Part shown: piece by piece, positions 1,171-51,569 of the stretch
Position numbering within the stretch: the stretch's first letter is position 1
Layout of the letters: each line of letters begins with the position of its first letter
DNA from: Heliomicrobium sp.
GTDB taxonomy: Bacteria > Acidobacteriota > Blastocatellia > RBC074
Assembly: GCA_021155085.1 (NCBI GenBank)
Contig: JAJNQA010000027.1
Span: forward strand, 30,058 to 94,057
Direction of reading: 5' to 3'
DNA: 64,000 nt
Position numbers and translations under genes: made by a program
Notes under the pieces: generated by a model
Databases searched by the model: none
What the model saw: the letters and a program-made list of their open reading frames with translations, nothing else
What the model was told of the DNA's origin: nothing

Positions 1171-1173
1171 ATT

Positions 1174-1244
1174 AGGTGATAGGTCGTAGGTGGCAGCTTG
1201 TAGGTTGAATGGAAAAAGCATCTGCCACCTGTCACCTACCACCT
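1174..1244. repeat. long imperfect inverted repeat (about 23-bp arms, 25-nt loop) spanning the first in-frame ATG (1209) of the second permease
   Basis: AGGTGATAGGTCGTAGGTGGCAG ... CTGCCACCTGTCACCTACCACCT, 8 perfect + about 12 further pairs by eye. Confidence 0.5.
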
Positions 1245-1253
1245 ACAACCTAT

Positions 1254-2516
1254 ATGCAAAAGCAAATTCTTCGCGACATCGTCATCACCGTTTTCGACAG
1301 CCTGCGCGCGCACAAGCTGCGTTCGGCGCTGACCCTGCTGGGAGTCGTCATCGGAACTTCAGTCGTGGTAATGGTCGGCGCCGTACTGACCGGGTTATCG
1401 GCGCGCGTGGCCGCCATCACCGAACGCAGCGCGCCGAATGTCATTTACTTCACGAAGGAAGAGCGGATCGGGCCATCCTTCAGCCGCCAAACCGCCGAAG
1501 AGCGGCAGCGGAAAGAAATCAGTTATGAAGATGCGCTGGCCGTTGCCGCGCTGGATACTCCACAGGCCGTTTCGCCGCAGAAAATTCGCGGCAGCTACGG
1601 CCCGTCGGCCAACAAGGCCAAAATGACCGCGAAGGGCCGCGAAGCCATCAATCCATTGATTCTCGGCGTCTGGGAGAACTTTCCCGAAATCGTTTCGGTA
1701 CGCGTGGATCGTGGCCGGTTTTTCACGGAAACCGAACGCAAGAGCCGCGCGAAAGTTTGCGTCATCGGCGTGGGCGTCGCCCGGCAGTTGTTTGAGGAGA
1801 CAAACCCGCTGGACCAGGACGTTCGCATTGATGGCGAGATTTACCGAGTGGTGGGCATTCTGGAAGAAGCTTCCGGCGAAGGGGTCATCGGCAGCGATGA
1901 CCTTGACGAACGCACCATCTACGTACCGTTCGAGACCATCGCCAAACAGTATCCGGAAATTGAAGGCACGGTCATTGTTGTTCGCGCGCCGGCAGGCAAA
2001 ACCGACGTGGTGACCGAGCAGGTGACGACAACTTTGCGCATTCGCCGAAACGTGCCGAACGAAGCGCCGAACAATTTCGGCGTCAATCGCGCCGAGCAGG
2101 TTTTTGAAGTCATTCAGCAGATCATCGTCGGTCTGGCCGCCATCGTCGTGCCGATTGCCCTGGCTGGCCTGGTGGTCGGCGGCGTCGGCGTCATGAACAT
2201 CATGCTGGTGTCGGTGACTGAACGGTCCCCGGAAATCGGTATCCGCCGGGCGCTGGGCGCGCGCCGCCGCGACGTGCTGACGCAGTTTCTGGTTGAAGCC
2301 ATGATTTTGACTGGCGTCGGCGGGCTGATCGGCATCGCCATCGGCTTTGTCTTTGCGCTGCTTATCCGCTTCGTCGTTAATTTTCCCGCCGCCGTGCCGA
2401 TGTGGGCGGTGATTGTTGGCTTCTTCACCTCGGCCTCGGTCGGTCTGATTGCCGGGATGTGGCCGGCCATCAGAGCCGCGCGCCTTGATCCGGTTGTCGC
2501 CATTCGCGGCGAGTAA
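1254..2516 (+). CDS. ABC transporter permease, FtsX/MacB family
   Basis: ORF 1209..2516; start placed at ATG 1254 just 3' of hairpin (1209 alternative); FtsX motif VMNIMLVSVTERSPEIGIRRALGARRRDVL...AGMWPAIRAARLDPVVAIRGE. Confidence 0.75.
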   Translation: MQKQILRDIVITVFDSLRAHKLRSALTLLGVVIGTSVVVMVGAVLTGLSARVAAITERSAPNVIYFTKEERIGPSFSRQTAEERQRKEISYEDALAVAALDTPQAVSPQKIRGSYGPSANKAKMTAKGREAINPLILGVWENFPEIVSVRVDRGRFFTETERKSRAKVCVIGVGVARQLFEETNPLDQDVRIDGEIYRVVGILEEASGEGVIGSDDLDERTIYVPFETIAKQYPEIEGTVIVVRAPAGKTDVVTEQVTTTLRIRRNVPNEAPNNFGVNRAEQVFEVIQQIIVGLAAIVVPIALAGLVVGGVGVMNIMLVSVTERSPEIGIRRALGARRRDVLTQFLVEAMILTGVGGLIGIAIGFVFALLIRFVVNFPAAVPMWAVIVGFFTSASVGLIAGMWPAIRAARLDPVVAIRGE

Positions 2517-3529: not shown

Positions 3530-4882
3530 ATGAACGAAAATCAAAGCTCCGCCCAGAATCCGTCCCAGAATCAAGCCTGGTTTGCCCTGGCCATATTATT
3601 CGCCATCAACACGATGAACTTTTTCGACCGGCAGATTGCGGCTTCGGTCGGCAAGCCGATCATTGACGAATTCAAGCTGACGGATTCCGATTTCGGCAAT
3701 ATGGCGATGGCTTTTACGCTGATTTACGCGGCGGTGGGTGTGCCGCTGGGCCGGTGGGCGGATCGCGGAAACCGCTCGCGGATTTTGAGCATCGGCGTGG
3801 CGGCCTGGAGTTTGTTCACGGCGGCGGGCGCCGCCGCCTGGAGTTATGGGTCATTGTTTGCGGCGCGAATGCTGGTGGGCGTTGGCGAAGCCAGTTGTTC
3901 GCCAGCGGGGAATTCGCTGATCGGCGATTTGTATCCGGCCAACAAGCGTGCGCGGGCGACTTCGATCTTTATGCTGGGGCTGCCGATTGGCATCTTCCTC
4001 AGCAATATGTTCGGCGGCGTGATCGCCAAACATTACGGTTGGCGCGCAACGCTGCTGATTGCGGCGGTGCCTGGACTGATTCTGGCCTCGCTGGCTTTTT
4101 TCATCAAAGAGCCGCCGCGCGGCGCAACCGAGGCCATCAAAACCAAACAGCAGGATCACAAAGGCTGGGAGCCTTATCGCCGCGTGCTGAACATTCCCAC
4201 GATGTGGTGGATCATCCTGTCGGGTGCGCTGCACAACTTCAACGCCTACGCGGTCAATTCATTTATGCCGCTTTACCTGGGCCGCTACCACGGTTTGGAC
4301 GTGGCCAACGCCGGTTATGTTTCCGCCGTGGTGCTGGGCGCGGTGGGGGTCGTCGGCTTGCTGGGCGGAGGGCTGGCCGCCGACTGGGTTCGCAAGAAAA
4401 GCCCGAACGGACGAATGCTTCTGTCCGCCTGGTCACTGCTGATCTCAACGCCGTGTATTTTCCTGGCATTGCAAATGCCGAAAGGCTCGCTGACCGCTTT
4501 TATGATTCTGATGGGGATCGGCTGGATGATGATCTACGTTTATTACGTGACGGTTTATCCGGCGGTGCAGGACGTGGTCGAGCCCGGTTTGCGCGGCACG
4601 GCGATGGCGCTGTATTTTTTCGCGATGTACCTGCTGGGTGGGGCCTTTGGCGCAAAAATCCTGGGAAATCTGAGCGATTATTTCGCCCGGCAGGAAATGA
4701 TCAAAGCCGGCGCAACCGCCATGGCCGAATCTTTCAGAGCCGAAGGATTGCACACCGCCTTTTACATCGCTCCGGTTGCTTCCCTGATTCTGGCTCTGGT
4801 GTTATTCGCCGGGGCGCGAACCGTGGCCAAAGACATGGAAAGGCTTCAGCAATGGATGCGCGGCGCGGCGGAAAAAGCCTGA
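3530..4882 (+). CDS. MFS transporter (spinster-like)
   Basis: 12-TM hydrophobic profile, MFS motif GRWADRGNRSRIL, DRQIAASVGKPI. Confidence 0.8.
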   Translation: MNENQSSAQNPSQNQAWFALAILFAINTMNFFDRQIAASVGKPIIDEFKLTDSDFGNMAMAFTLIYAAVGVPLGRWADRGNRSRILSIGVAAWSLFTAAGAAAWSYGSLFAARMLVGVGEASCSPAGNSLIGDLYPANKRARATSIFMLGLPIGIFLSNMFGGVIAKHYGWRATLLIAAVPGLILASLAFFIKEPPRGATEAIKTKQQDHKGWEPYRRVLNIPTMWWIILSGALHNFNAYAVNSFMPLYLGRYHGLDVANAGYVSAVVLGAVGVVGLLGGGLAADWVRKKSPNGRMLLSAWSLLISTPCIFLALQMPKGSLTAFMILMGIGWMMIYVYYVTVYPAVQDVVEPGLRGTAMALYFFAMYLLGGAFGAKILGNLSDYFARQEMIKAGATAMAESFRAEGLHTAFYIAPVASLILALVLFAGARTVAKDMERLQQWMRGAAEKA

Positions 4883-5080
4883 TCGCAAAAGCCTGGGTAC
4901 GCATCGCTTCCAGCGTGCGGACATGGCGGGAAAACCCGGTGGAATCCGAAAAGCAGGTGGAGCGCGCCCGCACGCTGGAAGCGATGCGTACCCAGGGGAG
5001 AGTTGTTTCACTTCCCGGATTGGCTTATGTTCTTGCCGCGAGATTTAGGCTTCGATTACTCAAGTGAAGCAGGGCGAATT

Positions 5081-6160
5081 ATGAAAAGGAATCGCAGAGA
5101 ATTTCTGAGAACCGGGCTGGCATTGGCTGCGACGACTTTGCCGGTTTTCGCACTGGCGCAAGACCCGCAGCAGCCGGAACAGATCGTTTATGTCTGCCCG
5201 ATGCACGCTGACGTATCTTCCAAACTGCCGGGAAAATGTCCGAAATGCAGTATGAAGCTGATAGCTGCAAAAGCTGCAGGCAGCAGCGGCGATTTCTATT
5301 CCTGCCCGATGCACCCCGACATTGTTTCCAACCAGCCGGGGAATTGTTCAAAGTGCAAGATGAAGCTGGTCAAATCAGCGCCGCCAGAAGTCAGCGATTA
5401 CGTCGTCAAAATTCAAACCGTGCCATCTCCGCCGCGCGCGGGCCAGAAAGCGAAGTTTCGCTTCACCATCTTTCATCCGACAACCGATCAGCAGATCAAG
5501 CAATTCAATATTCTGCACGACATGCCTTTTCACTTGTTTGTCGTCAGCCAGGACTTTGAAGCGTTCCAGCATATTCATCCCGACAAACAGGCCGATGGCA
5601 GCTTTACAATCGAGACCAAGCTTCCGAAAGCGGGTTATTACAAAATCTTCTGCGACTTCTTTCCGGCGGGCGGCACGCCGCAGGTCACGCATCACAGCCT
5701 GGTCACCGCAGGTTACAAAGGCGATTTGATGTCGTCGCTGGCGAAACTGACGCCGGATAAACCCGTTGGCGGCAAACTGGTGAAAACGGTTGAGGGGACG
5801 CGCTTTGAACTGAATTTCGAGCCGGCGGAACCTTTTTCCGGAAAATCCGCCGAGTTGCGTTACCACTTGACGGATGAAAAGACCGGCGGGCCGGTGACGG
5901 ATTTGAAGCCTTACCTCGGCGCCTGGGGACACACGCTGATTCTGAGCGAGGATGCGACGGATTATCTGCATTCGCATCCGACCGAAATGATTGACGAAGA
6001 ATTGACCATCGAAGAGCGCGACAAACTGCCTGGCAAGGCGGACGTGGTGTTTGACACCTTCTTTCCGCATCCGGGGAATTACCGCCTCTGGTCGCAGTTT
6101 CAGCGCAGAGAGAAGATCATCACGGTTTCCTTCACCGTCTACATTCCGCGTCTCAAGTAA
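5081..6160 (+). CDS. Tat-secreted metal-binding protein: two CPMHxD...CxKCxMKL heavy-metal-binding motifs + His-rich Ig-like C-terminal region
   Basis: Twin-arginine signal MKRNRREFLRTGLALAA; YVCPMHADVSSKLPGKCPKCSMKL and YSCPMHPDIVSNQPGNCSKCKMKL; HIHPD/WGH/HSHP His clusters. Confidence 0.6.
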   Translation: MKRNRREFLRTGLALAATTLPVFALAQDPQQPEQIVYVCPMHADVSSKLPGKCPKCSMKLIAAKAAGSSGDFYSCPMHPDIVSNQPGNCSKCKMKLVKSAPPEVSDYVVKIQTVPSPPRAGQKAKFRFTIFHPTTDQQIKQFNILHDMPFHLFVVSQDFEAFQHIHPDKQADGSFTIETKLPKAGYYKIFCDFFPAGGTPQVTHHSLVTAGYKGDLMSSLAKLTPDKPVGGKLVKTVEGTRFELNFEPAEPFSGKSAELRYHLTDEKTGGPVTDLKPYLGAWGHTLILSEDATDYLHSHPTEMIDEELTIEERDKLPGKADVVFDTFFPHPGNYRLWSQFQRREKIITVSFTVYIPRLK

Positions 6161-6216
6161 GGATGGGAGGAAGTCGGAAATCCGGACCGGGTTTCATTTT
6201 CCAGTTCCTCGTTCTC

Positions 6217-6269
6217 ATTTTTGATTTGTCATTGGTGAAGAGCCAGCCACTCGATGACAAATCAAAAAT
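6217..6269. repeat. inverted-repeat element copy 1 (ATTTTTGATTTGTCAT-N21-ATGACAAATCAAAAAT)
   Basis: 16-bp perfect arms; same core as copy at 8541-8614; followed about 50 bp later by shared CTATACTCCGCGC block. Confidence 0.8.
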
Positions 6270-6297
6270 GGAAAATAAGTCCCCGACAGCGTTTCTC

Positions 6298-6326
6298 CTG
6301 ACACTCCTTTTCTTTTCGACTATACT
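6298..6326 (+). promoter_or_regulatory. sigma70-like promoter for kinase gene (-35 CTGACA, 17-bp spacer, -10 TATACT)
   Basis: 5/6 + 5/6 matches to consensus, 17-bp spacing, about 90 bp upstream of ATG 6419; part of duplicated module. Confidence 0.5.
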
Positions 6327-6418
6327 CCGCGCACCCCTTTTCAGATAACCGAACATTTAGGTCAGACAGGCAGGCCAGACAGGCAGGCCAAACAGGCCGA
6401 ACAATCAAGGAGCAAGCC

Positions 6419-8524
6419 ATGAACCGCTGCGCGCATTGCTACGGTGATTTGCCGGATTTCGCCGTTTTCTGTCCCTCCTGCGCACGTGCCGACGAACCGG
6501 ACTTTGCCCGGATGCTGCACCAAACCATCGGGGAGCGTTACCGCCTTTACCGCCGGTTGGGGCAGGGAGGGCTTTCGACCGTTTTTGCGGCGACTGATCT
6601 GCAAACCGACGAGGTGGTGGTCGTGAAGGTCAGCGATCCGGCGCAGTTGGTGCAGCGAGAATTGAGTTATGCGATTGATGCCGAAGCCGCGCGCAACTAT
6701 TGGGGCGAGATGCTGGAGCGCATGCGCCGCGAAGCGGAAACACTTGCCGAGATTGATCATCCGAACATCGTGCGATTTTATGACACCGGGTTGATTGGCG
6801 AAGACCTGCGTTTTGTCGTCATGGAGTTTTTGCGCGGGCGGATGCTGCGGGATGAAATGGACGCCAAAGGCAGGCTGGAACCGGCAGCCGCAATCCGCAT
6901 CGCCCTGGAAATCTGCCAGGCGCTGCGCGAAGTCCACGCGCGCGGCATTGTTCACCGCGACATCAGTCCGCGAAACATCTTTCTGGCGGAAGCCAGAACG
7001 CAGGCAGCGGAAAATGAAACCGTCGAGGTGCGCCGCTCCATCATCAAGTTGATTGATTTCGGGATTGCCAAATTTCCGCAGCCGCCCGGCGCACCGCCCT
7101 TCACGCAGCATTCGGTGCTGAGCGGCACGGTCGCCTACGCTTCGCCGGAGCAATGTCAGAGCCGCGAAGTGGATCATCGTTCGGATATTTATTCGCTGGG
7201 GGTGGTGCTGTACGAAATGGTGACCGGGCAGCGTCTGTTTACAGGGCGGACGCCGACGGAAATTGCCCTCAAGCAAATTCAGGCGGAGCCGGTTCCACCG
7301 CGACAACTCAATCCTGATCTTCCCCTGGGCCTGGAGCGGGCGATTCTGCGGACGCTGGCGAAAAATCCTGAAGAGCGGCCACAAACCGCCGAACTATTTG
7401 CTGAAGAGCTTCGGGCAAGTGCCCGGCAAATCGTAATTCCACTGCAGGGCGTTCAAGCAGCGGACGCCGATTCGGTGGAAGGGCAAATCGTTGACGGCGA
7501 AAATGAAGAGTTGATTGACCGCGCGCGACTGGTTCGCCGCCGCCGCCGGCGCTTTGCATTGGCCGTGGCAGCCTTGTTGCTGGTCGGAGCCACGACGGGA
7601 ATGCTGTTTGGCAAAGACTGGCTGGTTTCGCGCCTGGTTGAAGCGCCGTTGGTGTCGCTGGCCAATCTGGGCGCGCAACCTTCGCCATCACCCAGCGAGA
7701 GTGCCGACGCCGAAGCCAACAGCGACCCGGACGCGCTGGAACTCGCGGCCCAGCTTCCGGCGGACAATGTCGCGGGCGTGCCCGGTAACAGCGGCGCGCA
7801 GCCATTGTCGCAACCCGGTCCGTCGAAATTGCCGGAGGCCAAATCAAACTTGTCCGCGGGTTCAAACACTCCATCAATCACACCGGCAAAACCAACGCCT
7901 GCGCCGGCACCTGCCGTAAAATCCGCGCCAGTCGCGTCTCATACGACGGTGAAGACTCCACCCCCCGTTTTGCCCGCTCCGCCACCGACGGTTGCCGTCG
8001 CGCGCGCGCCGCAGCCGGGCAGTTCTGCGCCCGACAGCAGGCCGGAAGCGCCAGGTTCACGCAAAATCGAAGACAGGAATAATCCCCGGCAGAGCGAACA
8101 TTCAACTGAAAACACCGATCACAATAATTCGCCGCAGGTTGCTCGCCGGGATCGTGTCGCCGCCAATCGCCAACGGGAGGAAGACTTTCCCCGCCGCGAA
8201 TCAAACTCGCGAAGGCACGAAGCCGCAGCCGATGCGGACGATGATCCTCAGGACAGGGAAGATTCTCAGCAACTCGGCCCGAAGCTGATTCAATGGAGCG
8301 GCCCGGTCAACCGCGAGCGCGAAATCACCATTGAGTTACCGGGCAAGCCCGGCAGATTGGAAATTCCGCGCGTCTACCGCAACCGTGTCGGCATGGTCGA
8401 ACCGCCCAGCCCATCGAATCGCTGGCGCAGCGCGAAACTGCGCGTCTTTGGACAAGGTGGAGTTTCGTTCGTCGTCCGTTGGTGGCCGGATGTGGTCGGG
8501 CTTTCCCGTCTGGCCGGTCATTGA
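6419..8524 (+). CDS. Ser/Thr protein kinase with N-terminal zinc-ribbon and Pro/Ala-rich low-complexity C-terminal half
   Basis: CAHCYGDLPDFAVFCPSCAR; Hanks kinase motifs GQGGLSTVF...VVKV, HRDISPRNIFL, DFGIAKF, GTVAYASPEQ; TM segment then PAP-rich tail. Confidence 0.85.
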   Translation: MNRCAHCYGDLPDFAVFCPSCARADEPDFARMLHQTIGERYRLYRRLGQGGLSTVFAATDLQTDEVVVVKVSDPAQLVQRELSYAIDAEAARNYWGEMLERMRREAETLAEIDHPNIVRFYDTGLIGEDLRFVVMEFLRGRMLRDEMDAKGRLEPAAAIRIALEICQALREVHARGIVHRDISPRNIFLAEARTQAAENETVEVRRSIIKLIDFGIAKFPQPPGAPPFTQHSVLSGTVAYASPEQCQSREVDHRSDIYSLGVVLYEMVTGQRLFTGRTPTEIALKQIQAEPVPPRQLNPDLPLGLERAILRTLAKNPEERPQTAELFAEELRASARQIVIPLQGVQAADADSVEGQIVDGENEELIDRARLVRRRRRRFALAVAALLLVGATTGMLFGKDWLVSRLVEAPLVSLANLGAQPSPSPSESADAEANSDPDALELAAQLPADNVAGVPGNSGAQPLSQPGPSKLPEAKSNLSAGSNTPSITPAKPTPAPAPAVKSAPVASHTTVKTPPPVLPAPPPTVAVARAPQPGSSAPDSRPEAPGSRKIEDRNNPRQSEHSTENTDHNNSPQVARRDRVAANRQREEDFPRRESNSRRHEAAADADDDPQDREDSQQLGPKLIQWSGPVNREREITIELPGKPGRLEIPRVYRNRVGMVEPPSPSNRWRSAKLRVFGQGGVSFVVRWWPDVVGLSRLAGH

Positions 8525-8540
8525 ACGCCACAGTCTTTTT

Positions 8541-8614
8541 CCCATTTCCCATTTTTGATTTGTCATTTCCACGAACGTATCTTCCGCAATGACAAATCAA
8601 AAATGGGAAATGGG
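8541..8614. repeat. inverted-repeat element copy 2 (27-bp perfect arms CCCATTTCCCATTTTTGATTTGTCATT / AATGACAAATCAAAAATGGGAAATGGG) with GGGAAAT tandem units
   Basis: perfect 27-bp palindrome arms separated by 20 nt; shares core with 6217-6269. Confidence 0.85.
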
Positions 8615-8662
8615 AAATGAAATGCGCTCTGCCGTCAATCCATTCCAGAAGGGAAAAAACAT

Positions 8663-8691
8663 CTTCCCACCCTTTTTTCGTGTGCTATACT
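8663..8691 (+). promoter_or_regulatory. candidate promoter with extended -10 (TGcTATACT), weak -35
   Basis: same CTATACTCCGCGC block as copy 1; about 155 bp upstream of ATG 8848. Confidence 0.35.
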
Positions 8692-8847
8692 CCGCGCCGC
8701 TTAGCCGATAAGAAAAGACGCCTCAGCTGGCAGTAAATCGTTGCCGAAGCCATTGAGCAGTAATCGTTCGCTGAAGACGCGTCATTCAATTGTCCCGGAT
8801 CTTTCCCGTCAACCGCAGTCTCAAACAGCCGAGGAGGAGCTTTCTGT

Positions 8848-11800
8848 ATGCTTTCCAAAGAGTGGAAACAACGAAAAACAACTTACGATTTCATCATCAT
8901 TGGTTCTGGGTATGGAGGCGCAATCACCGCCGCACGCCTGACCGCCGCCACGCCTTCGCCGTCCGTCTGCCTGCTGGAACGCGGGCGCGAATGGGAGGTT
9001 GGCAAATTCCCCGATGACGTTGGTGAAGTCGCCCGCAGCGTCCGCAATCCCACCTTCAATCCCACGGGACTCTATGATTTTCTGCTCTTTCCTGAAATTT
9101 CAGTCATGAAAGGCTCCGGCCTCGGCGGGACCTCGCTGATCAACGCCAACGTGGCCATCGTGCCGGACGAAGAAGTCTTCAGGCAGCTTGCCTGGCCAAA
9201 CGCGATCAAGCTGCCGGAGTTGCTGCCGTATTACCAGAAGGCGAAAACCATGCTGGGCGCAAACCCCCACCCACGCGGAAATCCGGCACAGGCCGATTCG
9301 CTGTTGAAAGTTCGTGGCCTGGATAAACGCGCGCAGGAACTGAGCCAGCGGGCCTTTCCGCTCGACATCGTGGTCAGTTTCAAGGACGGCAAGAACGCGG
9401 CGGGCGTCGAACAGAAAGCCTGCATTGATTGCGGCGATTGCGTGACCGGCTGCAACGTCGGCGCGAAAAACACGCTTTACATGAATTACCTGCCGGTCGC
9501 CGCGCGGCAGGGCTGCGACATTTTCACGAAGACCGAAATCAAATGGATCGAAAAACTCAGCGGCGGCGGCTGGCGCGTTCACGGCGTGCGCTACAAGGAC
9601 CTGAATTTCACGGATGATTTCACGCTCGACGCGGGCAAGGTGATTCTGGCCGCCGGTTCGCTGGGCACGCCGGAGATTCTGCTGCGCTCGGAGTTTCGCG
9701 GTTTATCGCTTTCGCCCAAAGTGGGCACGCAGTTTTCCGGCAATGGCGATTTCTTCGCGCTGGCGTACAACGCGGATCAACAGTTGAACACCGTGGGCTT
9801 CGGCAAAAATCCCGGCCATAAGTGGGCGCAGCGCGGCAATGCGCCCGGGCCAAGCATTGTCGGGACCGTTCGCTACGGCGGGACAAATTCCAGCCTGCCG
9901 TTGGAAAAGCGTATGACGATTCAGGATTTTTCCTTTCCCAGCGCCTATGTCAGCGCGGCGATGATCGCGCTGGATTCGCTGGTCAATCTCGGCGGCGGAC
10001 AGGACACAGACCTCGGCGATGAAAAGGCCGAACGCGACCGCGTCCGGAAGAACAATCCGTTCGACCCTTATAAACAGGACAACGCCGCGTTCAATCACAC
10101 AATGCTCTATTTGATAATGGGGCACGACGACGGGAAGGGCGTTTTGCGGCTGAAGCATGAACAGGGACGCGTCGAAATTGATTGGGACAACGCCGGACGG
10201 CAGCAGGTCTTCAACCTGATCAACGAAGAGATTCGCCGCCATTCCCGCGCGCTGGGCGCAACCTTCGTCACCAATCCGCTGTGGGCCATTACCCCATCCA
10301 GAAACCTGATCACCGCGCATCCGCTGGGCGGTTGTCCGCTGGGCGATGATTATCTGCACGGCGCGGTGGATGAATTCGGGCGCGTCTTCGCGGGCGATGG
10401 CAATGTTCATGACGGATTGTTTGTGGCAGACGGCTCGTTGATTTCGACGGCGCTTGGGGTCAATCCGTTCCTGACCATTTCAGCCCTGTCGGAACGAATC
10501 GCCGACCGAATGGTCCGCCATCTGGGCGGCGAAGCTTACCCGGCGCGCCCGGTAACGGTCCCGGTTGGCGGGCTCGAGCCGGCGGAAATCACGAAGTACA
10601 AGGAAGACGACCTGGAACGCATCTTCAGCCGCGTTCAAACCGGCAGCATCGAAAAGATGGTCAACGGCGGCAAGGTCGAAATTGACGCGGCGCATGGAAT
10701 GATCCGCAACGACACCGTCTGGAAAGGCTTTTTTCCGCGCGGCCACGTGATGGACCGGCTTTCGACGGCATTTTTTGCCAGCTTCAGGAAACGCTTCAGC
10801 AAAACCGCCGATGGCAAATTCATCGGCGTCACCAGCGATTCCGATGGGCGCATCAACGCTAATAACAAGCTCGAAGAGATCACGCTGACCAAACGCACGG
10901 GCACGCTCGATCCGGGCAAATACATCAAATTAAGTTACACGGATCCGCAGTGGGCGGGCTTTTACGACATTTTCAAAGTCGTCAGCGATGACCTGCTGAT
11001 CGGGCGCGTTTATCTGGGACGCTACCCGGACGGCCATCGCCTGTTTACCTTCCCCATGGTCCGCAGCTACGGCCTGGACAATATGACCGTCCCCGATCAC
11101 AAGGCGATTTGGGATCAGGGCGCTGTGCCAGCGAAAGAGCAGTTGAGCGGATTGTGGGAAATGCACATGGTTTCCAACGCGCACAACACCGGCGTAGTGG
11201 CGTATTTGAAATTCGAGCACAAACCTGACGGGCGGCTGGAATCGCATTACCAATTCCTGGGTTTGATTGAAGGGTTGGCGGACGGAAGCTTCGGCCAGGA
11301 TCATTTCCGGATGGATGACTTCACGCGGTTTCACGACGAAATTCGTTTCGTCAATCCAGACATGCTGGTCGGCAAATACGTGACCGACGAACGCCCCGCC
11401 GTATTCAATTTGTTTGGCCCGGATTCGCTGGGACTTTTTCACCGCGAAAAAGGCGCGGACGGCACGACGCGTTTTGGCTTTTATTACTGGCTGAAACGCA
11501 GCACGCTGACCGAAACACCGGCAGTGGGCTTCCTGCGCCCATTGCTCGATACGCGCCTGCCGGAAGGCGTGGGAATGAGTTTTGACGAGGAGATGAACGG
11601 ATATTTCTTCCTAGGCTTCACGCCCCCCCCTGGACGCGCGGGCGATCAGCAGATCGAAGCCAGAATTCCCGCAAGCGGTAAACCCGCCGATGGCGAAGAG
11701 ATGAGTCTGGAAATGCGCATTACCGCGCGCGACCTCAACGAATTCATTGAAAGCACTGAACACGAAGCCCGTTTGGAAGGCACGATTCGCATTCAGAACT

Positions 11801-12249
11801 TCGAGGGGCAGCCGGGACAGACCATCTGCACCATCAACAGCTCGAAGAGTTTCTTCAACTACCTGCGCATCAATCCGGCGACGCAGGAGGCGGAGATTCT
11901 CTACCGCATCTATTTCTTCGCCGGCGTGGGCCGGGAATACCTCTTCTCCGGGCGCAAGTACATGCAAAAAGACGCGCGCGACGTGCAGGAAATCGTCCGT
12001 GATTTCACCACCTGTTACGGGCGTTTGACCGAATTGAAAACGGGACGCGAAGTCGGCGCGGGCCTGCTCCGATTCCGAACCTTTGAAGATCCGGACGCCG
12101 TGCATAGCTTTGCGGAGTACCTGAAATCCTTCCGCGTGATCGGCACGGACAATCCGTTTGTGCAGTCGCAGGCGCAACTTCGATTTCTGGCAGTGACCAA
12201 TCAGTTCGTCGCAAGGGAGTATGACTTGATTGGAAATTTGCTGAGCTAA
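8848..12249 (+). CDS. GMC-family (cholesterol-oxidase-like) FAD oxidoreductase fused to about 570-aa C-terminal region of unknown function
   Basis: GAGGAGGAG SD; N-term DFIIIGSGYGGA Rossmann, GGTSLINANV, C-term GMC motif HPLGGCPLGDD...GLFVADGSLISTALGVNPFLTISALSERIA at about aa 480-560; remaining about 570 aa no recognisable family. Confidence 0.75.
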   Translation: MLSKEWKQRKTTYDFIIIGSGYGGAITAARLTAATPSPSVCLLERGREWEVGKFPDDVGEVARSVRNPTFNPTGLYDFLLFPEISVMKGSGLGGTSLINANVAIVPDEEVFRQLAWPNAIKLPELLPYYQKAKTMLGANPHPRGNPAQADSLLKVRGLDKRAQELSQRAFPLDIVVSFKDGKNAAGVEQKACIDCGDCVTGCNVGAKNTLYMNYLPVAARQGCDIFTKTEIKWIEKLSGGGWRVHGVRYKDLNFTDDFTLDAGKVILAAGSLGTPEILLRSEFRGLSLSPKVGTQFSGNGDFFALAYNADQQLNTVGFGKNPGHKWAQRGNAPGPSIVGTVRYGGTNSSLPLEKRMTIQDFSFPSAYVSAAMIALDSLVNLGGGQDTDLGDEKAERDRVRKNNPFDPYKQDNAAFNHTMLYLIMGHDDGKGVLRLKHEQGRVEIDWDNAGRQQVFNLINEEIRRHSRALGATFVTNPLWAITPSRNLITAHPLGGCPLGDDYLHGAVDEFGRVFAGDGNVHDGLFVADGSLISTALGVNPFLTISALSERIADRMVRHLGGEAYPARPVTVPVGGLEPAEITKYKEDDLERIFSRVQTGSIEKMVNGGKVEIDAAHGMIRNDTVWKGFFPRGHVMDRLSTAFFASFRKRFSKTADGKFIGVTSDSDGRINANNKLEEITLTKRTGTLDPGKYIKLSYTDPQWAGFYDIFKVVSDDLLIGRVYLGRYPDGHRLFTFPMVRSYGLDNMTVPDHKAIWDQGAVPAKEQLSGLWEMHMVSNAHNTGVVAYLKFEHKPDGRLESHYQFLGLIEGLADGSFGQDHFRMDDFTRFHDEIRFVNPDMLVGKYVTDERPAVFNLFGPDSLGLFHREKGADGTTRFGFYYWLKRSTLTETPAVGFLRPLLDTRLPEGVGMSFDEEMNGYFFLGFTPPPGRAGDQQIEARIPASGKPADGEEMSLEMRITARDLNEFIESTEHEARLEGTIRIQNFEGQPGQTICTINSSKSFFNYLRINPATQEAEILYRIYFFAGVGREYLFSGRKYMQKDARDVQEIVRDFTTCYGRLTELKTGREVGAGLLRFRTFEDPDAVHSFAEYLKSFRVIGTDNPFVQSQAQLRFLAVTNQFVAREYDLIGNLLS

Positions 12250-23295: not shown

Positions 23296-23303
23296 TGAAA
23301 GCG

Positions 23304-23351
23304 TGGGACAGATTTCAGTCTGTCCACAGTGCCGACAGGCTAAAGCCTGTC
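23304..23351. repeat. two adjacent REP-like hairpins (GTGGGACAGAT-ttcag-TCTGTCCACAG and GACAGGCT-aa-AGCCTGTCCCAC)
   Basis: same palindrome family as 34038, 40235, 41830. Confidence 0.7.
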
Positions 23352-23373
23352 CCACGATTTCCACGGAGCAATT

Positions 23374-32634: not shown

Positions 32635-32747
32635 AAGGGAAGGGAAGCGGGAAACGTCATTGGCCATTGACCATTAGCAATTGGCCATTAACCGACAAAA
32701 GACAGACGCTCTTCCATCGGTTAATGGCTGAATTCCTAATTTCCGGC

Positions 32748-34019: not shown

Positions 34020-34037
34020 AAACTCCCCTTCGCAAAT

Positions 34038-34063
34038 GTGGGACAGGCTAAAGCCTGTCCCAC
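34038..34063. repeat. REP-like perfect palindrome GTGGGACAGGC-taaa-GCCTGTCCCAC
   Basis: 11-bp perfect stem, intergenic between DUF1800 and DUF1501. Confidence 0.85.
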
Positions 34064-34078
34064 GTTCAGAAATATTTC

Positions 34079-36403: not shown

Positions 36404-36420
36404 GTCTTCACTTCTTGGAC

Positions 36421-36468
36421 AAAAGAAATGGGCGGCAATTGACTGTTGCTGCCCATTTCTTTTGCTTT
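36421..36468 (+). terminator. rho-independent terminator (18-bp stem AAAAGAAATGGGCGGCAA/TTGCTGCCCATTTCTTTT + T-tract)
   Basis: near-perfect 18-bp stem followed by TTTTGCTTTGC. Confidence 0.75.
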
Positions 36469-40234: not shown

Positions 40235-40287
40235 GTGGGACAGGCTTCAGCCTGTCGTCAGTGCGGACAGGCTGAAGCCTGTCCCAC
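40235..40287. repeat. two head-to-head REP-like hairpins forming a 53-bp near-perfect super-palindrome
   Basis: GTGGGACAGGC-ttca-GCCTGTCgtcagtgcGGACAGGC-tgaa-GCCTGTCCCAC. Confidence 0.85.
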
Positions 40288-50176: not shown

Positions 50177-50262
50177 GCCGGAGAAGCCCGATGGACGGGC
50201 GGCGGACTGTAAACCCGTTGTGGACGTGTGTCTGCAAGCAGGTTCGATTCCTGCCTCCGGCA
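50177..50262 (+). tRNA. tRNA-Tyr(GTA), type II (19-nt variable arm); non-canonical A8-A9
   Basis: acceptor GCCGGAG/CTCCGGC, loop CTGTAAA, T-arm GCAGG-TTCGATT-CCTGC, disc A; A31-C39 mismatch. Confidence 0.55.
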
Positions 50263-50267
50263 TTTCG

Positions 50268-50339
50268 GGGAGTATGTGGTAACTGGCAACCGGTCGGTCT
50301 CCAAAACCGATATTCCAGGTTCAAATCCTGGTACTCCTG
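50268..50339 (+). tRNA. tRNA-Trp(CCA)
   Basis: anticodon arm TCGGT-CTCCAAA-ACCGA, T-arm CCAGG-TTCAAAT-CCTGG, G1-U72; irregular D-arm. Confidence 0.6.
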
Positions 50340-50358
50340 TCAACGTTTGTAGCTATTT

Positions 50359-50446
50359 AGAGGCGTGGCGGAATTGGCAATCGCACTGGTCCGCTAAACC
50401 AGGGAGCTACTACAGTCTCGTGTGGGTTCGAGTCCCACCGCCTCTG
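50359..50446 (+). tRNA. tRNA-Ser(GCT), type II; C33 in anticodon loop
   Basis: acceptor AGAGGCG/CGCCTCT, CTGGT-CCGCTAA-ACCAG, long variable arm, T-arm GTGGG-TTCGAGT-CCCAC. Confidence 0.6.
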
Positions 50447-50465
50447 TCGAGTTATTTTTAGTTAC

Positions 50466-50550
50466 GGAGGGTTAGCCTAATTGGTAAGGCAGCAGTTTCG
50501 AAAACTGCCGTAGGATTGTACCTTTGAGGGTTCGAGTCCCTCACCCTCCT
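50466..50550 (+). tRNA. tRNA-Ser(CGA), type II; CCA encoded (50551-50553)
   Basis: acceptor GGAGGGT/ACCCTCC, GCAGT-TTCGAAA-ACTGC, T-arm GAGGG-TTCGAGT-CCCTC. Confidence 0.7.
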
Positions 50551-50600
50551 CCATTAAGTTCGGAGGTAATCAGCAACGCAATTAAGTTACAAATAGTTAT

Positions 50601-50684
50601 GGAGGGATGGCCGAATTGGCAAGGCAGTAGTTTTGAAAACTACCGGAGGTAACACTCTTCGGGGTTCGAGTCCCCGTCCCTTCG
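50601..50684 (+). tRNA. tRNA-Ser(TGA), type II
   Basis: acceptor GGAGGGA/TCCCTTC, GTAGT-TTTGAAA-ACTAC, T-arm CGGGG-TTCGAGT-CCCCG. Confidence 0.7.
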
Positions 50685-50715
50685 TCAGGTAGTAGTGTGT
50701 CTTGCAGGTACTTTG

Positions 50716-50791
50716 GCACTGGTAGCTCAGTTGGAATCAGAGCGCGGGCCTCCGAAGCCTGAGGTCGCGAGTTCGAGTCTCGCCCGGTGCA
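50716..50791 (+). tRNA. tRNA-Arg(CCG)
   Basis: acceptor GCACTGG/CCGGTGC, CGGGC-CTCCGAA-GCCTG, T-arm GCGAG-TTCGAGT-CTCGC. Confidence 0.7.
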
Positions 50792-50846
50792 TTTGACGTA
50801 AGTCGAACGTTATTTGAAAAGCCGGAAGTTATATTCAAATTACTTT

Positions 50847-50921
50847 GCGGGTGTGGCGCAAGCTGGTAGACGCGCAGCGCTAAGAACGCTGTTATTGGAG
50901 GTTCAAGTCCTCTCACCCGCA
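50847..50921 (+). tRNA. compact (type I, 75 nt) Leu-like tRNA with anticodon AAG
   Basis: acceptor GCGGGTG/CACCCGC, Leu-type D-arm GCG-CAAGCTGGTAGA-CGC, CAGCG-CTAAGAA-CGCTG, 5-nt variable loop, T-arm GGAGG-TTCAAGT-CCTCT, disc A. Confidence 0.5.
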
Positions 50922-50931
50922 TTTGGCGTTT

Positions 50932-51006
50932 GCAGGCATGGCGCAAATTGGCAGACGCGGCAGTCTCAAAAACTGCATTGTGAAGGTTCGAGTCCTTCTG
51001 CCTGCA
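50932..51006 (+). tRNA. compact (type I, 75 nt) Leu-like tRNA, anticodon CAA
   Basis: acceptor GCAGGCA/TGCCTGC, D-arm GCG-CAAATTGGCAGA-CGC, GCAGT-CTCAAAA-ACTGC, variable ATTGT, T-arm GAAGG-TTCGAGT-CCTTC, disc A. Confidence 0.55.
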
Positions 51007-51022
51007 TTATTGAAAGTTTTTT

Positions 51023-51098
51023 GTGGGTGTGGCGCAATTCAGGTAGACGCACCGGTCTCAGAAGCCGGTTGTTGGAGGTTCAAGTCCTCTCACCCACA
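51023..51098 (+). tRNA. compact (type I, 76 nt) Leu-like tRNA, anticodon CAG
   Basis: acceptor GTGGGTG/CACCCAC, D-arm GCG-CAATTCAGGTAGA-CGC, CCGGT-CTCAGAA-GCCGG, variable TTGTT, disc A. Confidence 0.55.
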
Positions 51099-51108
51099 TC
51101 AGATTTTC

Positions 51109-51181
51109 GTCGGCGTAGCTCAATTGGGAGAGCGCGAGTTTGCCAGGCTCGAGGTCGGGAGTTCAAACCTCCTCGCCGACT
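51109..51181 (+). tRNA. tRNA-Gly(GCC); CCA encoded (51182-51184)
   Basis: acceptor GTCGGCG/CGCCGAC, CGAGT-TTGCCAG-GCTCG, T-arm GGGAG-TTCAAAC-CTCCT, disc T. Confidence 0.7.
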
Positions 51182-51193
51182 CCATATTCTTTT

Positions 51194-51267
51194 GCACGCT
51201 TGGCCGAGTGGATTACAGGCGCAGGGCCGCAGCCCCTGTCAGGGCGGTTCGATTCCGTCAGCGTGCT
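51194..51267 (+). tRNA. Cys-like tRNA (anticodon GCA) with Ser-like D-arm, C33 and G37
   Basis: acceptor GCACGCT/AGCGTGC, disc T, CAGGG-CCGCAGC-CCCTG, T-arm GGCGG-TTCGATT-CCGTC. Confidence 0.45.
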
Positions 51268-51278
51268 TCATTTGATCT

Positions 51279-51354
51279 GCCGAAGTGGCGCAAACAGGCA
51301 GACGCGTGGAGCTTAAACCTCCGTCATTTGAGGGTTCGAGTCCCTCCTTCGGCA
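51279..51354 (+). tRNA. compact (type I, 76 nt) Leu-like tRNA, anticodon TAA
   Basis: acceptor GCCGAAG/CTTCGGC, D-arm GCG-CAAACAGGCAGA-CGC, TGGAG-CTTAAAC-CTCCG, short variable loop, T-arm GAGGG-TTCGAGT-CCCTC, disc A. Confidence 0.55.
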
Positions 51355-51365
51355 TTGTCAGTTTT

Positions 51366-51435
51366 TGCGGGTGGGCAAGTGCTCAGTTAGGTCTCATAAG
51401 CCTCGACTCGCTGGGAGCGTTACCCAGACCCGCAA
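51366..51435 (+). pseudogene. degenerate tRNA-like (CAT anticodon loop CTCATAA; non-canonical T-loop AGCGTTA)
   Basis: acceptor TGCGGGT/ACCCGCA pairs; D/T arms irregular. Confidence 0.3.
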
Positions 51436-51445
51436 TCAAAGTATG

Positions 51446-51521
51446 GGGCGCTGGGCAAGTCCGGTGAAGCCGTCGGTCTTTCAAGCTGAAGATCGTGGAT
51501 TCAAATCCCACACGACGCCCT
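51446..51521 (+). pseudogene. degenerate tRNA-like (TTC anticodon loop; T-stem A53-C61 mismatch and 2-nt insertion before 3' acceptor)
   Basis: GGGCGCTGGGCAAGT 5' end paralogous to 51366 copy; TCGGT-CTTTCAA-GCTGA. Confidence 0.3.
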
Positions 51522-51569
51522 ACTGTGTTTAGTTACATGATGTTACTCGGCAAGTAACTCGAAGTTACT

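What the first reader, a model, noticed from the sequence alone, without database searches (positions are those of the whole stretch)
6205..8700. Duplicated ~150-bp module (long inverted repeat + CTATACTCCGCGC promoter block) flanking the Ser/Thr kinase gene
Two copies of a palindrome built on TTTTTGATTTGTCAT...ATGACAAATCAAAAA (16-bp arms at 6217-6269; 27-bp perfect arms with GGGAAAT tandem units at 8541-8614) are present. Each is followed 50-70 bp later by a shared TATACT -10-like block (6321; 8686). One copy follows the metal-binding gene and precedes the kinase; the other follows the kinase and precedes the GMC operon. The kinase gene is therefore bracketed by direct copies of the element, like a MITE-flanked cassette or a duplicated terminator-promoter regulatory module. 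The arms are long enough to be a protein operator.
Basis: seen in the sequence. Interest (0 to 1): 0.6.

Follow-up and report, generated by a model that had tools for sequence, protein, structure and literature searches.

The report
Small hairpin repeats flanking kinase gene
Two copies of a small AT-rich hairpin-forming repeat, from a family found at unrelated sites in related soil Acidobacteria, sit on either side of a kinase gene just upstream of two much older promoters; this is an ordinary kind of intergenic repeat, not a mobile gene cassette or a regulatory operator.

Summary
Two perfect palindromes (17-nt arms at 6216-6232/6254-6270; 30-nt arms at 8538-8567/8588-8617) share the core CATTTTTGATTTGTCAT(T). 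An exact 13-mer, CTATACTCCGCGC, lies in the -10 region of the next promoter in both spacers.

It is not one duplicated 150-bp module. Only the arms and the 13-mer match. The loops and the linking sequence are unrelated.

The two parts have different histories. Both promoters are old. The kinase promoter is conserved in orthologues down to 55% protein identity, and the GMC promoter down to 70%, with or without hairpins. The hairpins are young and lineage-specific. IR1 is decayed in a relative whose kinase is 81% identical. IR2 is absent there, and another allele carries a different hairpin at that site. Kinase synteny predates both hairpins.

The arms are phased 7-nt units (YCATTTN). The same arm core occurs at unrelated intergenic sites in other Blastocatellia-like contigs. 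One pair of contigs shares a whole 101-nt element with unrelated flanks.

Best reading: these are two copies of a dispersed, REPIN/MITE-like palindromic repeat with heptamer-phased arms, sitting in the zone between a stop codon and the next promoter. They probably act as 3'-end RNA stem-loops. I rate it a new member of a known kind, of modest interest.

The parts
5003..6160 (+). Upstream gene: heavy-metal-binding-domain (HMBD) protein. Context only.
   Evidence: Pfam HMBD, E = 4e-24.
6177..6202 (+). Small GC-rich stem-loop (GAAATCCG-GAC-CGGGTTTC) followed by AUUUUCC. Candidate real intrinsic terminator of the HMBD gene.
   Evidence: Read from the sequence and from the fold of the spacer. It has one T too few to pass the terminator scan. 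Inference.
6195..6277 (.). IR1, the older and partly decayed copy of the heptamer-phased palindromic repeat. The perfect core arms are 6216-6232 and 6254-6270, with a 21-nt loop. The outer heptamers (CATTTTC CAGTTCC TCGTTCT on the left, GAAAATA on the right) no longer pair.
   Evidence: The orthologue in L061 has 39-nt arms at 79% complementarity. The window copy lacks 14 nt (2 units) of the right arm relative to L061.
6298..6332 (+). Kinase promoter: -35 CTGACA (6298-6303), -10 TATACT (6321-6326), and the shared block CTATACTCCGCGC (6320-6332).
   Evidence: Promoter scan, 10 of 12 matches. CTGACA, TTTCG.CTATACT and ACC..TT are invariant in six orthologues down to 55% kinase identity.
6363..6397 (+). 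Lineage-specific 13-nt tandem repeat (CAGACAGGCAGGC x2 plus a partial unit) inserted in the kinase 5'UTR.
   Evidence: Present in the window lineage but absent from L042-L047 at that place. A 14-nt version is in L061.
6419..8524 (+). Ser/Thr protein kinase gene (701 aa). A conserved core gene of Blastocatellia.
   Evidence: Pfam Pkinase, E = 1.5e-42. Full-length orthologues at 50-99% identity carry Blastocatellia names.
8538..8617 (.). IR2, the younger and intact copy. Arms 8538-8567 and 8588-8617 (30 nt, perfect), with a 20-nt loop. The left arm parses as TTTCCCA TTTCCCA TTTTTGA TTTGTCA TT. It starts 13 nt after the kinase stop codon.
   Evidence: L036 has one G->A change in the right arm. 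L039 lacks one CCCATTT unit in the left arm. L040 carries an unrelated hairpin at this site, and L061 and L042 carry other unrelated sequence.
8651..8678 (+). Short stem (GGGAA..TTCCC) followed by ACCCTTTTTT. It looks like a terminator and overlaps the -35 region of the GMC promoter.
   Evidence: Terminator scan. Partly conserved in L040 and L042. Function not shown.
8664..8697 (+). GMC-operon promoter: weak -35 TTCCCA (8664-8669), extended -10 TGC-TATACT (8683-8691), and the shared block CTATACTCCGCGC (8685-8697).
   Evidence: Promoter scan. TGTGCTATACTCCGCGCCG is invariant in L036, L039, L040 and L042.
8698..8847 (+). Conserved ~150-nt 5' leader of the GMC gene. UCUUUC (8800-8805) can pair with the GGAGGA ribosome-binding site (about 8833-8838).
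   Evidence: Alignment A2. RNAalifold keeps this helix in 4 of 4 sequences, but there is little covariation. No Rfam match.
8848..12249 (+). Downstream gene: 1133-aa GMC-family oxidoreductase. Context only.
   Evidence: Pfam GMC_oxred_N and GMC_oxred_C.

Best explanation
IR1 and IR2 are two copies, of different ages, of a small dispersed hairpin-forming repeat family found in Blastocatellia (Acidobacteriota). The arms are AT-rich and built of phased 7-nt units (YCATTTN on the 5' arm, its complement on the 3' arm). They are near-perfect Watson-Crick palindromes around an arbitrary 10-40-nt loop.

Shown: copies of this family lie in the tolerant zone between a stop codon and the next promoter. 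They grow and shrink by whole heptamers. They decay by uncompensated substitutions.

Inferred: the family spreads to unrelated sites, or is copied between nearby sites, in the manner of REPIN or MITE elements. IR2 probably arose by short-range copying from IR1 or from another family member.

The CTATACTCCGCGC block is a separate matter. It is the -10 hexamer plus a GC-rich discriminator of two old promoters that are conserved independently of the hairpins.

Inferred function: when the upstream gene is transcribed, the palindrome forms a very stable 3' stem-loop (-29 and -45 kcal/mol). This would work as E. coli REP elements do, as a barrier to 3'-to-5' exonucleases or as a processing or boundary site between neighbouring transcription units. 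A 30-bp perfect duplex would also be a candidate RNase III substrate. IR2 starts 13 nt after the stop codon, within the distance at which REPs have been reported to interfere with the terminating ribosome. The elements have no U-tract, so they are not canonical intrinsic terminators.
For: Structure: the arms are perfect and the fold z-scores are -6 and -10.

Heptamer phase: lag-7 self-similarity marks 5 regions in the window, against 0-1 at lags 5, 6 and 8-11 and 0.1 in shuffles. Two of the five are the arms of IR2, and two more lie in other intergenic hairpins, at 1171-1255 and 32657-32745. All family arms line up in one 7-nt register.

Dispersal: the same arm core (TTTTCCATTTTTGATTTGTCATT) sits at an unrelated locus in L024. 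Its neighbouring gene is most similar to Blastocatellia proteins, at 77% identity. L049 and L055 share a whole ~101-nt element, loop included, at about 94% identity with unrelated flanks. Further members are in Acidobacteriota MAGs L003 and L029 and in soil metagenome contigs.

Position: 11 of 16 family members lie within 75 nt of a gene's 3' end by crude ORF calls. Almost every gene 3' end in the window carries a strong hairpin of some family.

Turnover: IR2 differs by a 7-nt unit in L039 and by a point change in L036. The site holds an unrelated hairpin in L040 and other unrelated sequence in L061 and L042. IR1 in L061 has 39-nt arms at 79% complementarity, three uncompensated core substitutions, and a 14-nt unit indel relative to the window.

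Promoters are independent and old.

DNA-level palindrome: the outer arm positions scored across family members are 296 Watson-Crick, 11 wobble-type and 24 other, so there is no excess of wobble pairs.

Literature: heptameric intergenic repeats occur in inverted pairs close behind the upstream ORF in Xanthomonas (PMC4692102). REPINs are two inverted REPs separated by a spacer (PMC3337134 abstract). REPs within 15 nt of a stop codon stall ribosomes (as cited in PMC12306157).
Against: The copy number in the source genome is unknown. The 64-kb window holds only these two copies with this core, and they are 2.3 kb apart. That fits local copying better than random dispersal.

The loops of IR1 and IR2 are unrelated, so these two copies did not move as whole hairpins, unlike L049 and L055.

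I found no target-site duplication, no clean empty site, and no candidate transposase.

There are no transcript data, so the RNA role is inferred from position and stability alone.

The uncompensated decay of IR1 in L061 argues that the host selects weakly, if at all, for the stem.

The taxonomic labels of some MAG hits are unreliable, so I cannot say how far beyond Acidobacteria the family reaches.
Confidence: 0.6

Rival explanations
1. No mobility. Each palindrome grew in place from a short hairpin or a one-sided heptamer tract. Growth was by polymerase slippage in 7-nt steps, and template switching within the strand kept the arms perfectly complementary. IR2 took its arm sequence from IR1 by ectopic gene conversion, and the two have no function.
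For: Unit indels of 7 and 14 nt between close relatives. The arms are perfect Watson-Crick palindromes with no wobble excess. The loops of IR1 and IR2 are unrelated and have ordinary genome composition. The two copies are only 2.3 kb apart and are the only ones in 64 kb. Heptameric repeats are reported as over-represented in bacterial intergenic DNA and have been attributed to slippage (PMC4692102). No target-site duplication is seen.
Against: The same arm core of 23 nt or more recurs at unrelated loci in other genomes (L024, L049, L055). L049 and L055 share arms and loop with unrelated flanks. In-place growth cannot produce either result.
Confidence: 0.2
2. The first reader's module: one terminator-plus-promoter unit of about 150 bp was duplicated as a piece, so that the kinase and the GMC operon share a regulatory module.
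For: Both spacers have the same order of parts: palindrome, then 50-68 nt, then CTATACTCCGCGC.
Against: Nothing between the arms and the 13-mer aligns. The 13-mer is present at both promoters in L042, which has neither palindrome. The kinase promoter is conserved down to 55%-identity orthologues that lack the palindrome. IR2 is missing from L040 and L061, although L040 keeps the GMC promoter.
Confidence: 0.07
3. The palindromes are operators for a dimeric DNA-binding regulator or a nucleoid protein that co-regulates the kinase and GMC promoters, or that insulates them from each other.
For: Long perfect dyad symmetry with a shared core upstream of two adjacent promoters that also share their -10 block. 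The AT-rich arms stand out in a genome of about 57% GC.
Against: The centres lie about 90 and about 120 nt upstream of the predicted transcription starts, which is a different geometry in each case. Arm length varies by 7-nt units. The elements are absent from orthologues that keep the same promoters, and they decay without compensation. Family members lie next to unrelated genes, usually at gene 3' ends.
Confidence: 0.06
4. The kinase gene is a mobile cassette bounded by MITE-like or attC-like repeats.
For: Copies of the same palindrome lie on both sides of the gene.
Against: The kinase is a full-length orthologue family throughout Blastocatellia. It sits in conserved synteny with its neighbours in genomes that lack one or both repeats. 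Recombination patches among strains do not end at the repeats. There is no integrase or transposase next to it, and no GTTRRRY-type core site in the sequence.
Confidence: 0.02

Closest known systems
REP / REPIN elements (repetitive extragenic palindromes and their inverted doublets, mobilised by RAYT transposases)
   Same: Short, dispersed, hairpin-forming intergenic repeats that lie mostly just downstream of genes. The arms are more conserved than the central spacer. A REPIN is two inverted repeat units around a spacer (PMC3337134). Likely RNA-level effects on the 3' end of the upstream message. IR2 lies within the 15-nt distance from the stop codon that has been reported to matter for E. coli REPs (PMC12306157).
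   Different: There is no GTAG or CGTC tag at either end, and each arm is not itself a palindrome. The arms are AT-rich in a GC-rich genome and are built of phased heptamers. No RAYT gene is known for this family. The copy number per genome is unknown. The window carries a separate, more REP-like family (GTGGGACAGGCT..AGCCTGTCCCAC).
Heptameric intergenic simple-sequence repeats in inverted pairs (Xanthomonas GGGAATC, Nostoc GGGGAYT, cyanobacterial STRR)
   Same: Heterogeneous 7-nt tandem units. In Xanthomonas, 70-75 inverted pairs per genome, on average 28 nt behind the upstream ORF and 160 nt before the next ORF. Array length varies between close relatives. Function unknown (PMC4692102).
   Different: Those repeats are G-rich and can form quadruplexes. 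These are AT-rich with only two G-runs per arm. Here a specific arm sequence of 23 nt or more, not just a repeated unit, recurs at unrelated loci, and at least one whole element with its loop is duplicated.
MITEs (miniature inverted-repeat transposable elements)
   Same: Terminal inverted repeats, a size of 55-110 nt, an intergenic location, and no coding capacity. One pair (L049 and L055) shares the internal sequence as well.
   Different: No target-site duplication is visible and no parent IS with matching ends is known. The internal sequence of IR1 and IR2 is unrelated. The 'terminal repeats' make up nearly the whole element.
Rho-independent (intrinsic) terminators
   Same: A stable stem-loop shortly after a stop codon and before the next promoter.
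   Different: The stem is AU-rich and there is no 3' U-tract. On both strands the 5' arm is U-rich and the 3' arm A-rich, which is the reverse of a bidirectional terminator such as the one at 36420-36464.

Membership tests
REP/REPIN (RAYT-associated) | Conserved GTAG or CGTC tetranucleotide at one end of the palindrome | tested here: not met
   The arms begin TTTCCCATTT (IR2) and CATTTTTG (IR1). No GTAG or CGTC is seen at either end. The feature is as defined in PMC3733652 (abstract).
REP/REPIN (RAYT-associated) | High copy number (usually more than 100 per genome), dispersed in intergenic regions | not testable with these tools
   Only 64 kb of the source genome is held, and it has 2 copies. 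Copies at unrelated loci in related contigs show dispersal but not abundance.
REP/REPIN (RAYT-associated) | A RAYT (Y1 transposase) gene in the genome, flanked by the same repeats | not tested
   Genes next to the elements are ordinary. The rest of the genome was not available.
REP/REPIN (RAYT-associated) | Two inverted units around a less conserved spacer that fold into one long hairpin | tested here: met
MITE | Target-site duplication flanking the terminal inverted repeats | tested here: inconclusive
   No direct repeat is visible at the ends of IR1, IR2, L049 or L055. No clean empty site was available for comparison.
MITE | Copies share their internal sequence as well as their ends | tested here: not met
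   The loops of IR1 and IR2 are unrelated. The feature is met only by the pair L049 and L055.
Heptameric intergenic SSR inverted pairs (Xanthomonas type) | Tandem 7-nt units, possibly heterogeneous, in two convergent arrays on opposite strands | tested here: met
   Lag-7 excess. Phase table.
Heptameric intergenic SSR inverted pairs (Xanthomonas type) | Intergenic, and closer to the end of the upstream ORF than to the next start | tested here: met
   IR1 lies 55 nt after the stop and 148 nt before the next start. IR2 lies 13 nt after the stop and 230 nt before the next start. 11 of 16 family members lie within 75 nt of a gene's 3' end.
Heptameric intergenic SSR inverted pairs (Xanthomonas type) | Length varies by whole units between close relatives | tested here: met
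   L039 lacks 7 nt in the left arm of IR2. The window and L061 differ by 14 nt in the right arm of IR1.
Heptameric intergenic SSR inverted pairs (Xanthomonas type) | G-rich units able to form a quadruplex (four or more G-runs) | tested here: not met
   Each IR2 arm has only two GGG runs, and IR1 has none.
Intrinsic terminator | GC-rich stem followed by a U-tract | tested here: not met
   The terminator scan does not call either palindrome. The sequence after the right arms is GAAAATAAG (IR1) and TGAAATGCG (IR2).
Transcription-factor operator | Fixed position relative to the promoter and co-conservation with it in orthologues | tested here: not met
   The promoters are conserved without the palindromes. 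The distances to the -10 element differ, at 50 and 68 nt.
Integron attC / gene cassette | GTTRRRY core sites, an integrase nearby, and the gene absent from the site in relatives | tested here: not met
   No core sites in the sequence. The neighbours are MFS, HMBD, GMC and metallophosphatase genes. The kinase is syntenic in relatives.

The most novel reading that the evidence does not exclude
The AT-rich heptamer-phased palindromes are a previously undescribed class of non-autonomous element, or of protein-binding array. On this reading the class is spread through Acidobacteriota and perhaps other soil phyla (contigs labelled Planctomycetota carry many copies). It would be propagated by machinery unrelated to RAYTs and recognised in 7-nt steps by a dedicated protein. 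One candidate would be a single-strand-binding cold-shock-type or nucleoid protein that controls read-through between neighbouring transcription units.
Probability: 0.12. Interest if true: 0.6.

Novelty: new member of a known kind. Interest (0 to 1): 0.33.

Why it matters
The result removes a tempting but wrong reading, namely a mobile kinase cassette or a shared operator. It shows that the apparent 'module' is two unrelated layers. One layer is a pair of old promoters that share their -10/discriminator block. The other is a pair of young selfish or neutral hairpin repeats.

The wider point is modest but real. Blastocatellia genomes carry a family of palindromic repeats whose arms are built of phased 7-nt units. 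This links two phenomena that are usually treated separately: the over-representation of heptameric simple repeats in bacterial intergenic DNA, and REPIN-like dispersed hairpins. If the family is abundant, it could be used as a strain-typing marker. It would also be a natural test case for how 3' stem-loops without U-tracts shape transcript ends in a phylum with almost no molecular genetics.

Tried and rejected
(1) Rfam. Nothing in the region reaches a gathering score. Below threshold the only matches are to plant microRNA precursors and a Phe leader, which I take to reflect a generic long AU-rich hairpin. Rejected.

(2) Scan of 185,579 species genomes for TGATTTGTCAT-N10-40-ATGACAAATCA. It gave 34 loci in many phyla. 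Most are unrelated hairpins that happen to share the 11-mer, for example a conserved hairpin next to a ribosome-binding site in Clostridiales and a GC-flanked repeat in an Eggerthellaceae MAG. I discounted these as what is expected when one 11-mer is sought among the very many inverted repeats in genomes. Only the subset with heptamer-phased arms was kept.

(3) Cross-phylum claim. The contig most similar to ours is labelled Heliobacteriaceae, but its neighbouring protein is closest to Blastocatellia proteins. MAG labels are therefore not reliable evidence of wide distribution. The Planctomycetota label of L008, L013 and L017 was not checked.

(4) Viral contigs. No match.

(5) Getting more of the source genome. 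The exact kinase is on record only on a 14-kb Logan contig, and the look-up with pheT failed. Genome-wide copy number could not be measured.

(6) IHF, Fur and other remembered operator consensus sequences were compared by eye with the arms. None fitted, so I make no claim.

(7) Selection on the RNA stem. There is no excess of wobble pairs, and in L061 the three core changes are uncompensated. I found no evidence for selection, but the sample is small.

(8) Target-site duplications. None seen.

(9) The identity values of 85-87% for L039 and L040 were first taken as phylogenetic distance. Sliding identity shows these contigs are about 99-100% identical to the window except for imported patches. 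They give no information on the age of IR1.
Full report
**The observation.** Both palindromes are in the sequence, a little longer than reported. IR1 has perfect 17-nt arms at 6216-6232 and 6254-6270 around a 21-nt loop. IR2 has perfect 30-nt arms at 8538-8567 and 8588-8617 around a 20-nt loop. The 15-mer TTTTTGATTTGTCAT occurs exactly four times in the 64-kb window, once in each arm, and nowhere else even with three mismatches. As RNA the hairpins fold at -28.7 and -45.3 kcal/mol, 6 and 10 standard deviations below dinucleotide shuffles. CTATACTCCGCGC is exact at 6320 and 8685 and nowhere else. Each copy contains the -10 hexamer of a sigma-70-like promoter prediction: CTGACA-17-TATACT for the kinase, and TTCCCA-16 with an extended TGn-TATACT for the GMC gene.

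The part that does not hold is 'one ~150-bp module'. In a pairwise alignment of the two spacers, only about 22 nt of each arm and the 13-mer coincide. The loops and the stretch from arm to promoter are unrelated, and their lengths differ.

**Anatomy of the two spacers.** The genes are an MFS transporter, an HMBD protein, the Ser/Thr kinase, a 1133-aa GMC oxidoreductase and a metallophosphatase, all on the + strand.

- Spacer 1 reads: stop (6160); a small GC stem with a short U-run (6177-6202), which is a better terminator candidate than IR1; IR1; promoter; a 5'UTR with a 13-nt tandem repeat; ribosome-binding site; ATG at 6419.
- Spacer 2 reads: stop (8524); IR2, 13 nt later; a weak stem plus T6 that overlaps the -35 element; promoter; a ~150-nt leader; ribosome-binding site; ATG at 8848.

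Neither palindrome has a U-tract after it. On both strands the 5' arm is U-rich and the 3' arm A-rich, which is the reverse of a bidirectional terminator.

**Relatives separate the promoters from the hairpins.** Names on kinase homologues place the organism in Blastocatellia (Acidobacteriota). The kinase is a full-length orthologue family at 50-99% identity. I fetched ten orthologous loci.

- The kinase promoter is invariant at CTGACA, TTTCG.CTATACT and ACC..TT down to an orthologue of 55% identity. Most of these loci have no palindrome.
- The GMC promoter and its whole leader are conserved in L036, L039, L040 and L042.
- The 13-mer is at both promoters in L042, a 70%-identity relative with neither palindrome, and it occurs nowhere else in any locus held.

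The shared 13-mer is therefore an old property of two promoters, a -10 hexamer plus a GC-rich discriminator. A third promoter-like site in the window (TTGACA-18-TAGACT-GCGCGC at 21783, minus strand) has the same style. Whether the identity reflects common regulation or old common descent cannot be decided here.

**The hairpins are young and unstable.** L039 and L040 looked like 85-87% relatives. Sliding identity shows they are about 99-100% identical to the window except for imported divergent patches. They are the same population, with recombination.

- In L040 the patch covers spacer 2 and carries a completely different hairpin at the same place.
- L036 has one G-to-A change in the right arm of IR2, and L039 lacks one CCCATTT unit in the left arm.
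- L061, whose kinase is 81% identical, has an orthologue of IR1 with 39-nt arms at only 79% complementarity. It has three substitutions in the inner core, none compensated. It also has two extra heptamers in the right arm that the window lacks.
- L061 has no IR2.

IR1 is therefore the older copy and is decaying. IR2 is recent and intact. Kinase synteny (HMBD-kinase-GMC) holds in genomes without the repeats, which rules out a cassette.

**What the arms are made of.** The arms parse into 7-nt units (TTTCCCA TTTCCCA TTTTTGA TTTGTCA). A lag-7 self-similarity scan finds 5 regions in the window, against 0-1 at lags 5, 6 and 8-11 and 0.1 in shuffles. Two of the five are the arms of IR2, and two lie in other intergenic hairpins with different units: (TAGGTNN)n at 1171-1255 and (CCATTNN)n at 32657-32745.

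Pattern scans of 185,579 species genomes and of JGI metagenomes with the arm core returned many unrelated hairpins, which I discount. They also returned a coherent subset whose arms are in the same 7-nt register with units YCATTTN.

- Closest to ours is L024 (TCATTTT CCATTTT CCATTTT TGATTTG TCATTTG). It lies between a hypothetical gene and a GT39 glycosyltransferase. The MAG is labelled Heliobacteriaceae, but the glycosyltransferase is 77% identical to Blastocatellia proteins.
- L049 and L055, two contigs of one soil metagenome, share an entire ~101-nt element, loop included, at about 94% identity. The flanks are unrelated and there is no target duplication.
- Genes next to family members are unrelated housekeeping genes. 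11 of 16 members lie within 75 nt of a gene's 3' end by crude ORF calls.
- Across members, the outer arm positions scored are 296 Watson-Crick, 11 wobble-type and 24 other. These are DNA-level palindromes, not RNA stems that tolerate G-U pairs.

**Genome background.** Almost every gene 3' end in the window with a spacer over 40 nt has a strong hairpin. These include 29-nt perfect arms after the MFS gene, a GTGGGACAGGCT..AGCCTGTCCCAC family with at least three copies, and a canonical A-stem-T terminator at 36420-36464. A hairpin between a stop codon and the next promoter is the rule in this genome, not a peculiarity of the kinase.

**Most likely mechanism.** Shown: two copies of a dispersed palindromic repeat family with heptamer-phased arms; unit slippage; uncompensated decay; independence from the promoters.

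Inferred: the family spreads or is copied like a REPIN or MITE, and IR2 arose by short-range copying from IR1 or another member. The 2.3-kb spacing of the only two copies in 64 kb favours local copying.

Inferred: as RNA, each palindrome forms a very stable 3' stem-loop on the upstream message and works as E. coli REPs are reported to. That means a barrier to 3' exonucleases or a processing or boundary site. A 30-bp perfect duplex is also a plausible RNase III substrate. At 13 nt from the stop codon, IR2 is within the range in which REPs were reported to stall terminating ribosomes (cited in PMC12306157). The decay seen in L061 suggests any host benefit is weak.

**Rivals.**
- In-place growth by slippage plus template switching, without mobility. 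This explains the perfect arms, the unit indels and the unrelated loops. It does not explain identical arm cores of 23 nt or more at unrelated loci, or the L049/L055 pair (confidence 0.2).
- A duplicated terminator-promoter module (0.07), an operator (0.06) and a kinase cassette (0.02). All three are contradicted by the comparative data above.

**Comparison with known systems.** The closest in behaviour are REP/REPIN elements. The GTAG/CGTC tag is absent, a RAYT gene could not be looked for, and the arms are AT-rich heptamer arrays rather than small GC-rich palindromes.

The closest in construction are the heptameric intergenic repeats of Xanthomonas. There are 70-75 inverted pairs per genome, lying on average 28 nt behind the upstream ORF, with lengths that vary between species and no known function (PMC4692102). 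The cyanobacterial STRR and TAACTGA repeats are related examples (PMC4679880). Those repeats are G-rich or are direct repeats, and no conserved arm sequence shared between unrelated loci is reported for them in the passages I read.

The elements are not intrinsic terminators, MITEs in the strict sense, attC sites or operators (see the membership table).

**Verdict.** The finding is a new family of a known kind of small intergenic palindromic repeat, lying next to two old promoters that share a 13-nt core. Interest is modest (0.33).

The main open questions are the copy number and means of spread of the family, why the arms are built in 7-nt steps, and why two neighbouring promoters keep an identical -10/discriminator block.

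**Limits.** There are no transcript data. Only 64 kb of the source genome was available. The collection scans required exact matches to one arm core, so the family is certainly under-sampled. MAG taxonomy labels proved unreliable in the one case checked.

Noticed in passing
window 50177-54387 (+): An array of 34 tRNA genes back to back, covering nearly all amino acids. GC content falls from about 0.58 to about 0.52-0.54 from 46 kb onward. This could be a tRNA-array island or a prophage remnant.
   Followed up: no
window 1171-1255 and 32657-32745: Two more intergenic hairpins whose arms are phased heptamers with different units. One is (TAGGTNN)n/(NNACCTA)n between two FtsX-type genes, at -36.9 kcal/mol. 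The other is (CCATTNN)n between convergent genes. The heptamer construction is therefore a recurring feature of this genome.
   Followed up: partly
L042 2443-2576 (inside the kinase ORF of a 70%-identity orthologue): Inverted heptamer arrays (GATTGCG)n ... (CGCAATC)n lie in frame inside the kinase gene. They encode an insert (..QSAIRNPQSAIK) between the catalytic loop and the DFG motif. A similar peptide (AIRHPQSAIK) is in the 55% orthologue P0018. This looks like a heptamer palindrome taken up into coding sequence.
   Followed up: partly
window 8698-8847; L036, L039, L040, L042 equivalents: The ~150-nt leader of the GMC oxidoreductase gene is unusually conserved, even at 70% protein identity. 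It contains UCUUUC that can pair with the GGAGGA ribosome-binding site. It may be an undescribed translational leader. There is no Rfam match and too few sequences to test covariation.
   Followed up: partly
window 23297-23361, 34035-34066, 40235-40287: A GC-rich REP-like family, GTGGGACAGGCT..AGCCTGTCCCAC, is present as single hairpins and as doublets. Two copies lie in the spacers of paralogous two-gene modules (a DUF1501 gene plus its upstream gene) whose flanks also align.
   Followed up: partly
window 7118-9300 vs L040; 7384-7984 vs L039: Strains that are otherwise 99-100% identical carry divergent patches of 62-88% identity within the kinase gene and spacer 2. This is recombination mosaicism centred on the kinase linker region.
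   Followed up: partly
window 4892-4996: A perfect 29-nt inverted repeat with a 47-nt spacer lies between the MFS and HMBD genes. It folds at -64 kcal/mol, is GC-rich and is not heptameric.
   Followed up: no
window 6363-6397 and 2524-2579: Two lineage-specific tandem repeats. One is a 13-nt unit (CAGACAGGCAGGC) in the kinase 5'UTR, absent at that place from the more distant orthologues L042-L047; L061 has a 14-nt version. The other is a 9-nt unit (CCTGAATTG) x4 in the spacer at 2524-2579.
   Followed up: no
L061 513-529 and 3090-3106: In the 81% relative, a different short repeat (GCACGCGAGGCCGC) lies on both sides of the kinase gene. Bracketing of this gene by members of one repeat family has therefore happened at least twice with different repeats.
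   Followed up: no
L024/L025 (CAZWAK01 contigs): A MAG deposited as 'uncultured Heliobacteriaceae' carries a glycosyltransferase whose best named relatives are Blastocatellia (77% identity), with GC of 0.55-0.57. The label, or the binning of these contigs, looks wrong.
   Followed up: partly
L003 about 4100-4280 (Acidobacteriota MAG, 2.9-Mb contig): A member of the same heptamer-phased family has arms of about 75 nt, of which about 68 nt are perfectly complementary. That is unusually long for a stable bacterial palindrome.
   Followed up: no
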